The translations under genes and the position numbers were made by a program. Positions 18,603 to 21,428 of a DNA stretch of 32,000 nt are shown one piece after another (the first letter of the stretch is position 1; each line of letters starts with the position of its first letter). The stretch spans positions 360,001 to 392,000 of the forward strand of contig JAIZWK010000001.1 of assembly GCA_021498095.1 (NCBI GenBank), given 5' to 3'. Source of the DNA: Candidatus Harpocratesius repetitus (GTDB taxonomy: Archaea; Asgardarchaeota; Lokiarchaeia; Sigyniarchaeales; Promethearchaeaceae). Below the pieces are notes generated by a model. That model searched no databases, was not told the DNA's origin, and was given only the letters and a program-made list of their open reading frames with translations.

Positions 18603-18759
18603 AAAAGTCATCTAAATTTTGGAATGCATGAAGGGTAAATTGATATTTATATGTAGTGTTTTTTATTATTCAATATTTTTTCATTGGTTTCGCACCCCAT
18701 GAATTATCTCCTCCTACTGCTTGTTTAATATAATCAATATTTAGGGTAATCAAATGTCT
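18603..18759 (-). pseudogene. Displaced, degenerate copy of the beta-galactosidase 3' end (direct-repeat copy A)
   Basis: 146/157 identical, gap-free, to 21272-21428. Minus-strand translation is [51 protein letters not shown], with TGA where lacZ has CGA (Arg). Confidence 0.88.
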
Positions 18760-18878
18760 TCGGATTCGGACTATTTTAGTGAAACCATGCTTTTAAATGC
18801 GGTGGATCTTTTTACGGCTGCATGGGATTTAAAGTATCCACAAAATTGATAAAATGTAAAAAAACATTATCTTATAGG

Positions 18879-20960
18879 ATGAAATATATCATGAAAAATA
18901 AATGGCAAATCTTCATTATTTTATGCATATTAGGAATAGGAAGTATGACCCCTCTTTTTTCTTTCTTCTTTTCTTTCCAAATGCACGATTCAAATTTGAC
19001 ATTGCAGTCAGAACCGAAAAAGGGAGACTGTATTCCCGCCGATGCGAACCCCGAAAGTTTTATTTCCGTGTGGAACACTGCTTTACACAGCGGAGGATCA
19101 AGCAATGACAATCAGATAAGATTACCTTTGGAATCTTCGGGTACGTACAACTTCACGGTGAACTGGGGCGATGGAACAAGTGATACAATCACCGTTTGGA
19201 ATCAGGCAGAAGTCACGCACACCTATTCTGCGGTTGGTAACTATACCCTAACCATTAACGGAACCGTTGTCGGATGGTGCTTTGATTTTGAGGGAGATAG
19301 ACTGAAAATAACGGAAATTTTGCAGTGGAGATCTTTAGAATTGGGAAATTCGGGCTGGTATTTTGCTGGATGCGAAAATTTGAATTTAACAGCCACCGAT
19401 TCTCCCAATTTAAGCGGAACAACTGATTTAAGCGGAACTTTTTGGGGTTGTAAGAAATTAGGCAGTAGTGGAAATATGAACTTTTGGAATGTTTCGTCTG
19501 TAACAAAAATGTACTGTATGTTTTGGGGGACCTTCTCGTTCAACCAAAATATTGGAAATTGGGATGTATCAAGTGTGACCGATATGGAACGTATGTTTCT
19601 GCATGCATATTCGTTCAATCAAGATATCGGAAATTGGGATGTGTCTTTTGTAACTAATATGTTTGGAATGTTTTGGGATGCTCATTCGTTCAATCAAGAC
19701 ATCGGCGGTTGGAATGTTTCAAGAGTAACGGATATGAGTGCAATGTTTTGGAGGGCTTTTTCGTTTGACCAAGATATTGGAGGATGGAACGTTTCCAAAG
19801 TGACTGATATGTATCGTATGTTCAGTGAAGCAACTTCTTTTAATCAAGATATTGGAAGATGGAATGTATCGGCTGTTTGGAATATGGGCGGTATGTTCGA
19901 AGGGGCTTCGGCATTTAATCAGGATATAGGTAATTGGGATGTATCCAGTGTAACTGATATGTATTGGATGTTTGATGGTGCTTCTTCATTCAATCAAGAT
20001 ATAGGCAGTTGGGATGTATCAAGCGTGACCAGTATGGATTGGATGTTTGGAAATGCTTTTGCATTCAATCAAGATATCGGAAATTGGGATGTATCAAATG
20101 TGATATCCATGGGTGCCATGTTCTCTGGAGCTTCTTCATTCAATCAAGATATTGGTAAATGGAATTTGCGTAATGTTCTTTATATGCCCGAAATGTTCAA
20201 AAATGCGGCATCTTTCAACCAGAATATCAGTGCATGGCATACAACTTTGGTGGAAAATATGTGGTGTATGTTCGCCAATGCTACTTCATTTAATCAGGAT
20301 ATTAGCGGTTGGAACGTTCATATAGCGGGAAATATGAATTATATGTTCGCCAATGCCAGTTCATTCAATCAAGATTTAAGCACCTGGAATACCGGTTCTG
20401 TAAAAAGGATGAAATGTATGTTTGATGGCGCATCTTCATTCAATCAAGATATCAGCGGTTGGGATGTTTCTTCCGTGATCGATATGAGTTACATGTTCCG
20501 TAATGCCAGCTCATTCAACCAAGATATCAGCAGTTGGGATGTTTCGGCCGTTACAGATATGAGCCACATGTTCGATGGAGCTTCAGCTTTCGATCAAAAC
20601 CTCGGTAGCTGGAATGTATCATCGGTGACCGATATGAAAGGGATGTTTCGTGGTATAAAATTGTCAACGGCAAATTATGACAGCATTTTACAGCATTGGT
20701 CGAAATTGCCTCTACAGAGTAACGTTTCATTTGATGCGGGAAATTCGCAGTACAGCAAATCCGCAGTCGAGGCTCGACAGTATATTGTTGGTACTTTCGG
20801 ATGGAATATTACCGATGGCGGTTTTACGGAAAAAGAACCGGGAACAAACCAAATTTCAGGGTATCCGATCTTCATCTTTATGTGCTTTTTTGCCGTATTG
20901 ATTGCAGTTTTAGGAAAAAGGTTCGAAATATCACCGTCCATTCCCAAATCCGTTCAATAA
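18879..20960 (+). CDS. DUF285/BspA-type repeat surface protein with an N-terminal PKD-like domain and a Loki-CTERM-like tail
   Basis: Signal-like N-terminus (start ATG 18879 or 18891; ORF track 18822). PKD-like NFTVNWGDG...[14 protein letters not shown]. 25-aa repeats WxVSxVTDMxxMFxxAxSFNQDIGx. C-terminal ISGYP + TM + KR. Confidence 0.93.
19485..20648 (+). repeat. Intragenic 75-bp (25-aa) tandem array, 15 full units plus 1 partial
   Basis: Trp codons recur every 75 nt from 19485 to 20610. Confidence 0.92.
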
Positions 20961-20964
20961 CTAC

Positions 20965-20973
20965 TTTTTTTTT
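20965..20973 (+). terminator. Putative archaeal oligo-T terminator of the DUF285 gene
   Basis: T9 run beginning 5 nt after the stop codon. Confidence 0.4.
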
Positions 20974-21271
20974 AGTTTGCATCTTAATACATGCACAGAT
21001 GCGATTCCACACAATGTTGTATTTATAATAACTTGGTTTTGGGCTTTCTCGGACGACTTATCAAAATAAAACAAAACTATCAAGTGATTTAAAATTGTCG
21101 AAAATTAACTAAATTTAATTGATATATGTAAATATACATGTATTAAAGAATTTGATAGCAGTAGTATCTATAATATCAATCACATAAATCTGAATTAACA
21201 AAATTTTATGATTTTCTGTTAAAAGAACGAACAAATTCTAATATGGAGCAAAAATTTAGTCAAGAGAAATC

Positions 21272-21428
21272 AAAATTCATCCAAATTTTAAAATGCATGA
21301 AGGGTAAATTGATATTTATATGTAATGTTTTTTATTAATCGGTATTTTTTCATTGGTTTCGCACCCCATGAATTATCTCCTCCTACTGCTTGTTTATTAT
21401 AATCAATATTTAGTGTAATTAAATGTCT
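21272..21428 (-). repeat. Direct-repeat copy B, covering the current lacZ 3' end and 16 nt beyond its stop
   Basis: 146/157 identical to 18603-18759; offset 2669 bp. Confidence 0.92.

What the first reader, a model, noticed from the sequence alone, without database searches (positions are those of the whole stretch)
18603..21428. Surface-protein cassette bracketed by a 157-bp duplication of the lacZ 3' end (gene-end-replacement insertion)
Seen: 18603-18759 and 21272-21428 are a gap-free direct repeat (146/157, offset 2669 bp) enclosing only the DUF285 gene, which looks GC-richer than the surrounding AT-rich genes. Copy B is the live lacZ end (...[24 protein letters not shown]). Copy A is a displaced end (...[29 protein letters not shown]). 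Five of the 11 differences are synonymous and 6 are at third codon positions. Homology continues past the present stop (TAA in B versus CAA in A), so both copies descend from a longer coding tail that had already diverged. Inference: a circular or donor DNA carrying its own lacZ-end allele recombined into lacZ, restored the gene and pushed the old end downstream, as in attL/attR integration at gene 3' ends. No integrase or transposase is in the cassette. This could be a recombinase-in-trans or homology-driven route for gaining and losing adhesin cassettes; recombination between the repeats would excise a 2669-bp circle.
Basis: partly seen in the sequence, partly recalled or inferred. Interest (0 to 1): 0.78.

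Follow-up and report, generated by a model that had tools for sequence, protein, structure and literature searches.

The report
Cassette insertion duplicating the lacZ end
A surface-protein gene copied from elsewhere in this Asgard archaeon's genome was joined into the end of its beta-galactosidase gene by imprecise (non-homologous) DNA joining that also duplicated 157 bases of the target; this is a known but unexplained insertion mode that recurs in this genome, not an integrase-type mobile element.

Summary
The 157-bp direct repeat (146/157, 2669 bp apart) is real. Copy B is the end of an intact GH2 beta-galactosidase gene. Copy A is a dead tail 424 nt upstream of a Loki-type actin gene.

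The DNA between the repeats is a patchwork, not a coherent element:
- a 2.2-kb unit with three 89-92% paralogues in this genome, cut inside the upstream subtilase gene that the paralogues keep;
- 194 nt with no match in this genome;
- a 120-nt stretch matching the start of a small gene elsewhere.

Both outer joints are illegitimate, with 3 nt and about 13 nt of microhomology. The window holds no recombinase, tRNA or att-like core.

A congener has its own lacZ-tail duplication at the same junction with unrelated cargo. This genome holds 17 two-copy local repeat pairs, and at least 8 others bracket recombinase-free cargo.

Best reading: "insertion with long target duplication" (Nobusato 2000; Furuta 2010), here with a resident paralogue as cargo. 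The donor-allele, attL/attR-like reading is neither needed nor supported.

Earlier readers of this scan flagged this scar type at three other sites in this genome. Follow-up agents described it in CPR bacteria, Binatia and a small groundwater archaeon. It is a new member of a known kind, of moderate interest.

The parts
17025..18179 (-). Loki-type actin gene, the downstream neighbour of the ancestral lacZ end
   Evidence: Pfam Actin 438 bits; 98% identical in congener G002
18180..18602 (-). Actin upstream region. Only about 100-140 nt next to actin is conserved with G002. It places copy A at the ancestral position of the lacZ end.
   Evidence: 18180-18317 is 83% identical to G002; the rest is saturated
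18603..18759 (-). Copy A: displaced, dead lacZ tail (codons 1123 to end, in-frame TGA, keeps the ancestral CAA and a longer C-terminus)
18757..18759 (.). Left joint: 3-nt microhomology TCT shared by the lacZ tail and the subtilase/DUF285 unit
   Evidence: Alignment of the window with paralogues B, C, D and with copy B
18757..18849 (+). Last 93 nt of a subtilase (S8) gene, a truncated remnant carried in with the cargo
   Evidence: Paralogues B, C, D continue upstream into ORFs ending at this point; Pfam Peptidase_S8 in B and C
18757..20970 (+). 2.2-kb unit with three paralogues in the genome (92.2, 90.2, 88.9% identity); ends in the oligo-T run just after the stop codon
18879..20960 (+). DUF285 (BspA-like repeat) surface-protein gene, 693 aa, intact, under purifying selection
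   Evidence: Pfam PF03382 574 bits; dN/dS 0.18-0.26 against the paralogues; signal/TM at both ends
20971..21164 (.). 194-nt filler with no detectable source in this genome
21165..21284 (+). 120-nt stretch, 89% identical to 78 nt upstream plus the first 14 codons of a 77-aa ORF at genome 3496710-3496943; truncated here (ATG at 21243)
21272..21284 (.). Right joint: 13 nt that fit both the lacZ tail (11/13 to copy A) and the 77-aa-gene fragment (12/13)
   Evidence: Three-way alignment
21272..21428 (-). Copy B: live lacZ tail, with a derived TAA stop and a 2-nt deletion just after it; includes the conserved GGDNSWGA motif
21288..24794 (-). GH2 beta-galactosidase (lacZ-like), 1168 aa, all five GH2 domains
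   Evidence: Pfam; PDB matches

Best explanation
This is an 'insertion with long target duplication'. SHOWN: the last 157 nt of lacZ are present twice. The DNA between them is a mosaic of (i) a copy of the 3' part of a resident subtilase-DUF285 locus, (ii) 194 nt of unknown origin and (iii) a 120-nt piece matching the 5' end of another resident gene. The two outer joints show 3 nt and about 13 nt of microhomology. No recombinase, tRNA or repeated element lies at the ends. INFERRED: a break or stalled fork in the lacZ 3' end was repaired by microhomology-driven joining or serial template switching. The new strand left lacZ 5 codons before its old stop and copied or captured the three pieces. 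It then re-entered lacZ 157 nt behind the exit point, so the target was duplicated. Because the tail carries the conserved GGDNSW motif, only an event that kept a full tail on the lacZ body would leave lacZ working. The actin promoter region also stayed intact behind the old tail. Afterwards copy A decayed (TGA, I-for-N, I-for-L), and the live copy gained a TAA that trimmed about 5 more residues. The DUF285 copy stayed under purifying selection and exchanged patches with its paralogues by gene conversion. The same process appears to act at other gene ends in this genome and acted at the same junction in a congener.
For: Repeat and its coding state. The cargo unit has three paralogues that extend 290-1185 bp further upstream into a subtilase gene, while the window copy is cut at 18757, exactly at the inner edge of copy A. 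The 120-nt fragment of a second locus overlaps the tail by 13 nt. No lacZ body remnants lie between the repeats. No integrase, transposase or tRNA in the window. The presumably neutral pieces differ from their resident counterparts by similar amounts (tail 7.0%, subtilase fragment plus spacer 7.3-9.7%, 120-nt fragment 10.8%), which fits one event. The DUF285 family is native to the order (14 of 21 genomes). The best foreign match is 59-65% aa, against 83-91% among the G000 copies, so this is an in-lineage expansion. Congener G002 has actin, a dead tail, a 418-aa orphan gene and live lacZ, with its own 117-nt 90% repeat and different boundaries. Genome-wide, 17 two-copy local direct-repeat pairs exist, and at least 8 others bracket recombinase-free cargo next to an intact gene (PUA, SNF2, actin-like, EMG1, AAA ATPase, Cas6, vapBC/R-M, rdhA). 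For the SNF2 case both congeners show the empty site (SNF2 directly followed by SWIM). Ku was not found in this 94%-complete genome, which would favour microhomology-type joining over classical NHEJ if the absence is real.
Against: No genome with an uninterrupted lacZ-actin junction was found (G001 has three other genes there), so the empty site is inferred for this locus, not seen. Three nt of microhomology at the left joint is no more than chance allows. The direction of copying between the 120-nt fragment and genome 3496632-3496751 is inferred only from which copy is truncated. The mosaic could have been built by several events rather than one. DUF285 synonymous divergence (dS 0.26-0.31) is larger than the tail divergence predicts, and gene conversion blurs any clock. 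The enzymology (break repair or replication template switching) is not addressed by any data here.
Confidence: 0.6

Rival explanations
1. Import by homologous recombination from a related strain. This could be Campbell-type pop-in of a circle, or homology-facilitated illegitimate recombination using lacZ as anchor. One tail would then be the donor's allele, and the 7% difference would reflect strain divergence rather than age.
For: Direct repeats flanking an insert are what a single crossover gives. The repeats keep identical blocks of 54 and 33 nt. All cargo pieces differ from their resident homologues by a similar 7-11%, as expected if everything came from one diverged donor. The actin-like case has 99.6% identical repeats but cargo no more than 91% identical to any resident copy, so that cargo was not copied recently from this genome.
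Against: The structure itself (a tail joined to a truncated subtilase gene on one side and a truncated small gene on the other) still needs the same illegitimate joints to have formed somewhere first. No donor, strain variant or circle was found: the best metagenome relative of lacZ is 44% identical, and no skip joint appears in the contigs (contigs cannot show rare forms).
Confidence: 0.2
2. One old tail duplication in the common ancestor of G000 and G002, kept similar to the live tail by gene conversion, with the cargo later replaced in each lineage. The DUF285 unit would then be a secondary replacement rather than the original insert.
For: Only these two of 22 examined lacZ loci have a tail duplicate, both in the one genus where lacZ neighbours actin, with the dead tail 424 and 451 nt from actin. 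Gene conversion is active among the DUF285 paralogues (patchy differences).
Against: The inner boundaries differ by about 36 nt, and the outer boundaries differ too: 16 nt past the present stop in G000 against at least 110 nt past it in G002. Non-coding DNA between the species is saturated, so conversion would have had to be continuous. The cargos are unrelated, and G002's is single-copy. This reading needs more steps than two independent events.
Confidence: 0.13
3. Copy A is the last remnant of a tandem lacZ paralogue whose body was deleted and overwritten.
For: A decayed lacZ fragment (aa 625-700 fused to the tail, colinear) exists at genome 1057131-1057386, so lacZ sequence has been duplicated at least once more in this genome.
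Against: No other lacZ-derived sequence lies between the repeats, even at E-value 50. None of 22 relatives' loci has tandem lacZ genes. At least eight other sites in this genome would need the same coincidence, and the SNF2 site has a verified empty state in both congeners.
Confidence: 0.04
4. Retro-copy: a subtilase-DUF285 transcript ending at its oligo-U terminator was reverse transcribed with 5' truncation and inserted with a long target duplication.
For: All four DUF285 units end at the same oligo-T run just after the stop codon and have nested upstream ends. Reverse transcriptase genes exist in the genome.
Against: The unit's 3' end does not abut the target but is followed by 194 nt of filler and a fragment that includes likely promoter DNA. 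The similar 'common end' of a second family proved to be just the end of the conserved coding region with subfamily-specific flanks. Four copies are too few to judge.
Confidence: 0.03

Closest known systems
Insertion with long target duplication (Nobusato, Uchiyama, Ohashi, Kobayashi 2000, Gene 259:99, cited from memory and from PMC2853133; Furuta et al. 2010, NAR, PMC2853133)
   Same: A gene block under 20 kb without integrase or transposase, flanked by direct repeats longer than 30 bp that derive from a single-copy target and often overlap a gene's 3' end. Repeat length varies from site to site. The mechanism is unknown.
   Different: The described cases carry restriction-modification genes in bacteria, and the authors' screen retained no archaeal case. 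Here the host is an Asgard archaeon. The cargo is a resident surface-protein paralogue plus short filler pieces. The joints can be read because the source loci are in the same genome. This genome also has an R-M example (117401/120238).
Gene-end-replacing integrative elements (lambdoid phage 21 and e14 at icd of E. coli; from memory)
   Same: A duplicated, slightly different copy of a gene's 3' end keeps the gene intact after insertion. A displaced old end lies on the far side.
   Different: Those elements encode an integrase, recombine at a short fixed core, are coherent units found in many hosts, and bring their own gene end. None of these features was found here.
Microhomology-mediated break-induced replication / fork stalling and template switching, and templated or filler-DNA insertions in end joining; archaeal primase-mediated microhomology end joining (PMC12019639, abstract only)
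   Same: A patchwork of short segments copied from several loci, joined at microhomologies, with a duplication of the entry site.
   Different: These processes are defined experimentally in eukaryotes, bacteria and Sulfolobales. Nothing here tests the enzymes. Segments of 2.2 kb are long for filler DNA.
Homology-facilitated illegitimate recombination (de Vries and Wackernagel 2002; from memory)
   Same: One homologous anchor plus one microhomology joint can insert foreign DNA next to a conserved gene. If the illegitimate joint falls inside the anchor region, a duplication results.
   Different: It needs incoming DNA from a relative. Here the cargo family is resident and no donor is known.

Membership tests
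Insertion with long target duplication | Direct repeat longer than 30 bp flanking the insert, otherwise unique in the genome | tested here: met
   157 nt, 146/157 identical. The only other hit is a 72-nt remnant 0.68 Mb away.
Insertion with long target duplication | The repeat corresponds to a single-copy target in a related genome without the insert (empty site) | tested here: inconclusive
   No relative has an uninterrupted lacZ-actin junction: G001 has other genes there and G002 has its own duplication. The sister case in this genome (SNF2/SWIM) does have the empty site in both congeners.
Insertion with long target duplication | Insert under 20 kb with no integrase, transposase or other mobile element | tested here: met
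   2512 nt containing one DUF285 ORF. Pfam finds no recombinase in the window. The cargo ends are not MITE or IS ends.
Insertion with long target duplication | Not a tRNA or att-type site-specific target | tested here: met
   No tRNA in the window. The other repeat pairs in the genome share no visible sequence motif at their edges.
Integrase-type integrative element at a gene 3' end (attL/attR) | Element-encoded or nearby tyrosine/serine recombinase | tested here: not met
   None in the cargo or in the 32-kb window.
Integrase-type integrative element at a gene 3' end (attL/attR) | A coherent element with the same ends and its own gene-end segment in other copies | tested here: not met
   Sister units B, C and D continue into a subtilase gene and carry no lacZ end. 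The window copy is simply cut there.
Tandem lacZ paralogue remnant | Further lacZ-derived sequence between the repeats, or two lacZ genes in relatives | tested here: not met
   tblastn and blastn find only the tail. 22 relatives' loci each have a single lacZ.
Composite transposon / MITE-bracketed cassette | The flanking repeats are multi-copy elements with terminal inverted repeats | tested here: not met
   The repeat is lacZ coding sequence, present twice only. The genome's 300-320-nt MITE-like families are different sequences.
DUF285 / BspA-like surface proteins (PF03382) | Pfam model above the gathering score; 25-residue repeats | tested here: met
   574 bits against a cut-off of 25. 75-nt periodic repeats.
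GH2 beta-galactosidase (LacZ type) | The five GH2/LacZ domains and the C-terminal GGD(D/N)SW motif | tested here: met
   Pfam PF02837, PF00703, PF02836, PF16353 and PF02929. The tail aligns to PDB 6s6z including GGDDSWGA. Enzyme activity was not tested.

The most novel reading that the evidence does not exclude
Loki-type Asgard archaea have a host-driven, recombinase-free copy-and-insert route: microhomology-guided template switching or primase-type end joining. It seeds dispersed gene duplicates and foreign cassettes at gene ends, leaves 50-355-bp target duplications, and recurs at particular junctions such as the one upstream of the actin gene. It would then be a main source of the paralogue expansions (surface proteins, defence genes) seen in these genomes.
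Probability: 0.3. Interest if true: 0.7.

Novelty: new member of a known kind. Interest (0 to 1): 0.5.

Why it matters
Insertion with long target duplication has been known from comparisons of bacterial genomes since 2000, but its mechanism is still unexplained. At this locus the cargo's source loci lie in the same genome, so both joints can be read to the base. They are microhomology joints to truncated resident genes, with short filler pieces between them. That points to break repair or template switching rather than to a dedicated recombinase.

The pattern recurs at about a dozen sites in one closed Asgard genome, and at the same lacZ/actin junction in a second species. This suggests a regular route by which these archaea, noted for unusually many gene duplicates, gain dispersed paralogues and accessory cassettes without disrupting the neighbouring genes. 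For annotation, the dead 157-nt tail should be marked as a pseudogene fragment and the locus should not be called an integrative element.

Tried and rejected
- Integrase/att model: no recombinase or tRNA in the window, and no shared motif at the edges of eight repeat pairs.
- Tandem-lacZ remnant: no lacZ body traces in the cargo, and no tandem lacZ in 22 relatives.
- MITE/IS bracket: the genome is full of 300-320-nt repeat families (54, 46, 36 and 11 hits), but the lacZ repeat is not one of them.
- Retro-copy idea: prompted by the shared 3' ends and nested 5' ends of the DUF285 units and of a roughly 4-kb two-gene family. In the second family the shared end is just the stop codon of a conserved ORF with subfamily-specific flanks, and the DUF285 unit's 3' end is not at the target joint.
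- Foreign origin from GC content: rejected, because the resident paralogues have the same GC.
- Closer strains: the metagenome scan with lacZ found nothing above 44% identity.
- Reads: only short-read contigs of the source sample were available. They confirm the right joint and show no 2669-bp skip, but contigs cannot show rare excision products, and the contigs shown do not bridge 18652-18793.
- First dN/dS run: it was in the wrong frame and was redone. Only the non-coding difference counts are used.
- A slower version of the genome survey timed out and was replaced by a single self-BLAST.
- Downstream synteny for the PUA and EMG1 cases could not be judged, because the fetched flanks in the congeners were too short.
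- Structure and complex predictions were not used, because they would not bear on the question.
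Full report
OBSERVATION

The window is G000:C1:360001-392000 of a closed 4.36-Mb genome with 31% GC. 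The repeat finder reports 18603-18759 and 21272-21428 as a gap-free two-copy direct repeat, 93% identical and 2669 bp apart.

Copy B is the end of an intact 1168-aa GH2 beta-galactosidase gene (21288-24794, minus strand; all LacZ domains). Its tail aligns to a solved beta-galactosidase (6s6z), including the GGD(D/N)SWGA motif. From memory, this motif holds an active-site Trp (W999) in E. coli LacZ.

Copy A, read in the same frame, has an in-frame TGA. It also has CAA where B has its TAA stop, and runs on to ...QNLDDFYEFFH*.

Between the repeats lies one long ORF, a DUF285 repeat protein (PF03382, 574 bits). Its likely start is at 18879, and it has hydrophobic segments at both ends, so 'surface protein' is reasonable.

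The gene downstream of copy A is a Loki-type actin (Pfam Actin 438 bits). The organism is therefore an Asgard archaeon of the Lokiarchaeia type.

ANATOMY OF THE CARGO

The cargo is not a coherent element.

- 18757-20970 has three paralogues in the same genome: 787416-789629 (92.2%), 1058892-1061106 (90.2%) and 3130954-3133169 (88.9%).
- Those three share a further 290-1185 bp upstream. That stretch is a subtilase gene (Peptidase_S8) whose stop lies 93 nt inside the unit.
- The window copy is cut at 18757, exactly at the inner edge of copy A, so it carries only the last 93 nt of that subtilase gene.
- At this joint the lacZ tail (...ATG TCT AGT...) and the unit (...GAA TCT TCG...) share only TCT.
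- The unit ends in the oligo-T run just after the DUF285 stop.
- Next come 194 nt with no match anywhere in the genome.
- Then 21165-21284 is 89% identical to genome 3496632-3496751. That region is 78 nt of upstream sequence plus the first 14 codons of a 77-aa ORF, which is intact there and truncated here.
- This fragment overlaps the lacZ repeat by 13 nt (21272-21284). Those 13 nt fit both partners: 12/13 to the small gene and 11/13 to copy A.

Both outer joints are therefore illegitimate. No lacZ-derived sequence other than the tail lies between the repeats, even at very permissive thresholds. The window holds no tRNA, integrase or transposase.

POLARITY AND AGE

A third lacZ fragment sits at genome 1057131-1057386: aa 625-700 fused through a 6-nt overlap to the tail, lying 1.5 kb upstream of DUF285 paralogue C. 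The lacZ of congener G002 also helps with polarity. Both read past the position of B's TAA. So the live gene's stop and the 2-nt deletion after it are derived.

The outer edge of the duplication lies about 5 codons before the ancestral stop. Copy A carries the nonsense change and two further replacements, as expected for a dead copy.

The presumably neutral pieces of the cargo differ from their resident counterparts by similar amounts:
- tail: 7.0%
- subtilase fragment plus spacer: 7.3-9.7%
- 120-nt fragment: 10.8%
. This is compatible with one event.

The DUF285 copies evolve under purifying selection (dN/dS 0.18-0.26, dS 0.26-0.31). Their differences are patchy (1 to 35 per 200 nt), which indicates gene conversion, so they give no clean clock.

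DUF285 genes occur in 14 of 21 genomes of the order. The best foreign match is 59-65% identical at the protein level, against 83-91% among the G000 copies. The family is native and expanded within this lineage. Its higher GC (37.5-40.6%) is a family trait, not a sign of recent import.

RELATIVES

Actin and lacZ are neighbours only in this genus.

Congener G002 has the same architecture with different content:
- actin at 7978-9132
- a dead lacZ tail at 9583-9699
- a 418-aa orphan gene at 9811-11067, single-copy and with no Pfam family
- the live lacZ at 11177-14365
- a 117-nt repeat at 90% identity, plus weaker similarity for about 55 nt further downstream
.

In each genome the dead tail resembles its own live tail, not the other species' dead tail. 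The boundaries differ: the inner edge is at codon 1123 here and about codon 1135 there, and the outer edge is 16 nt against at least 110 nt past the present stop.

Non-coding DNA between the two species is saturated, apart from about 100-140 nt next to actin. The dead tails are therefore young, or continuously converted.

G001 has three unrelated genes at this junction and no duplicate. None of 20 further lacZ loci in the order has a tail duplicate. A metagenome scan found no relative above 44% identity, so no empty site for this locus is available.

THE SAME SCAR ELSEWHERE IN THIS GENOME

A self-comparison lists 17 local direct-repeat pairs whose repeat has few or no other copies in the genome (40-600 nt, at least 88% identical, 0.7-12 kb apart). 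Besides lacZ, at least eight bracket recombinase-free cargo next to an intact gene:

| Host gene | Repeat | Identity | Cargo |
|---|---|---|---|
| PUA gene | 108 nt | 91.7% | TetR + radical SAM |
| SNF2 helicase | 118 nt | 98.3% | orphan gene + MITE |
| actin-like gene | 249 nt | 99.6% | a two-gene unit with about 14 full or partial copies |
| EMG1 methyltransferase | 319 nt | 94.7% | 6.7 kb with ABC-transporter genes |
| AAA ATPase | 298 nt | 92% | beta-helix proteins |
| Cas6 | 355 nt | 97.5% | AAA_14/DUF4143 ATPase |
| vapBC-type site | 129 nt | 98.5% | DNA methylase + partner (the vapBC reading is taken from note e1-5444962; my Pfam run found no family for the flanking ORFs) |

.

For SNF2, both congeners show the empty state, with SNF2 directly followed by the SWIM gene. 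As at lacZ, the live copy lost a few terminal codons at the joint, while the displaced copy keeps the old ending. The edges of these repeats share no visible motif.

INTERPRETATION

The structure matches 'insertion with long target duplication'. This was described for restriction-modification genes in bacteria and remains mechanistically unexplained (Furuta et al. 2010, PMC2853133; Nobusato et al. 2000, as cited there). The authors' screen retained no archaeal case.

What this locus adds is readable joints: microhomology to truncated resident genes, and filler pieces from other loci. I therefore favour microhomology-driven break repair, or serial template switching with re-entry 157 nt behind the exit point (confidence 0.6).

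Selection then explains why the visible events preserve both neighbours. A re-entry that deleted the tail, with its GGDNSW motif, or the actin upstream region would probably be lost.

Ku was not found in this 94%-complete genome. Reverse transcriptases exist, but the retro-copy idea lacks support.

A homologous-recombination import from a diverged strain cannot be excluded (0.2), and neither can one old event with conversion and cargo turnover (0.13). A tandem-lacZ remnant is essentially refuted.

Excision by recombination between the repeats is possible in principle. However, a crossover in the longest identical block (54 nt) would give lacZ copy A's TGA. Only the 33-nt block further on would restore an open tail.

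ASSEMBLY CHECK

Short-read contigs from the source sample cover 20921-21321 without differences, which spans the cargo/spacer/copy B joint. Flanking contigs of 17.8 kb and 12.2 kb run from outside the stretch and end inside copy A (18652) and copy B (21384) respectively. Depth is about 20-23 on the unique flanks and about 4 times that on DUF285, which fits four copies. No 2669-bp skip joint was reported. Contigs cannot exclude rare forms.

EARLIER NOTES OF THIS SCAN

First readers had already flagged three of the sister sites in this genome (e1-5444962, e1-5448733, e1-5445003). Follow-up agents described the same scar type in CPR bacteria, Binatia and a small groundwater archaeon, naming the Nobusato/Furuta papers. 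I found the sister sites independently and checked the literature claim.

VERDICT

This is a new member of a known kind: archaeal, with non-R-M paralogous cargo and readable joints. Interest 0.5.

Noticed in passing
G000 genome 1057131-1057386 (L027:3131-3386): A third lacZ fragment: aa 625-700 (85% nt identity to window 22733-22902) fused through a 6-nt overlap to the last ~20 codons, with the ancestral ...QNLDEYIEF* ending. It lies between a pyruvate-oxidoreductase-gamma-like gene and the subtilase-DUF285 paralogue C. It is either a decayed paralogue or templated filler. Two of the four DUF285 copies thus have lacZ pieces nearby.
   Followed up: partly
G000 genome, several sites (L019-L025): 63606/66880, 117401/120238, 189039/191253, 342390/344019, 510694/513331, 2054696/2061695, 2260749/2265222, 2565756/2572392: At least eight further recombinase-free cargo blocks bracketed by 55-355-nt duplications of a neighbouring gene's end or interior: PUA, vapBC/R-M, Cas6, rdhA, SNF2, EMG1, actin-like, AAA ATPase. 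The R-M case would be an archaeal example of the original Kobayashi-type observation.
   Followed up: partly
G000 genome 2260998-2265221 and about 14 other places: A roughly 4-kb two-gene family (337 aa + 951 aa, no Pfam hit even at E=5) with about 14 full or partial copies at 82-91% identity. All share the stop-codon end of the 337-aa gene and break off at different points in the larger gene. It is cargo in at least two of the duplication-flanked insertions. Function unknown.
   Followed up: partly
G000 genome-wide, e.g. 29554-29869, 2701739-2702058, 2813397-2813692, 785920-786242: Four families of 300-320-nt dispersed repeats (54, 46, 36 and 11 hits, mostly 85-96% identical), MITE-like. One lies 75 nt after DUF285 paralogue C. 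An RT-like fragment (786237-786416) abuts a copy of the 11-member family near paralogue B.
   Followed up: partly
window 17025-18317: The Loki-type actin is 97-98% identical across the genus. About 100-140 nt of its upstream region is strongly conserved with G002 while the rest of the spacer is saturated. This is probably the promoter/5' leader, and it now faces the DUF285 gene divergently.
   Followed up: partly
window 8976-17024: This 8-kb stretch (PIN-domain gene, lactate-permease-like gene, 306-aa membrane ORF, papain-C1/FN3 protease) corresponds to only 2.3 kb with an EamA transporter in congener G002. It is a second variable segment on the other side of actin.
   Followed up: no
window 18757-20970 versus its paralogues: Differences between the DUF285 paralogues are strongly patchy (for example 1 and 5 per 200 nt next to 35 and 33), indicating ongoing gene conversion. 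Paralogue D (3130954-3133169) is split by a frameshift into 307- and 389-aa ORFs.
   Followed up: partly
window 26976-31304: A 1442-aa DUF4011 / AAA_11-AAA_12 helicase with a C-terminal MTES_1575 restriction-endonuclease-like domain, conserved next to the lacZ block in G002 (71% identity).
   Followed up: no
window 21288-24794: This lacZ is about 100 aa longer than its relatives (1050-1080 aa). The extra length sits in Asn/Lys-rich low-complexity inserts, one of them just upstream of the duplicated tail.
   Followed up: no
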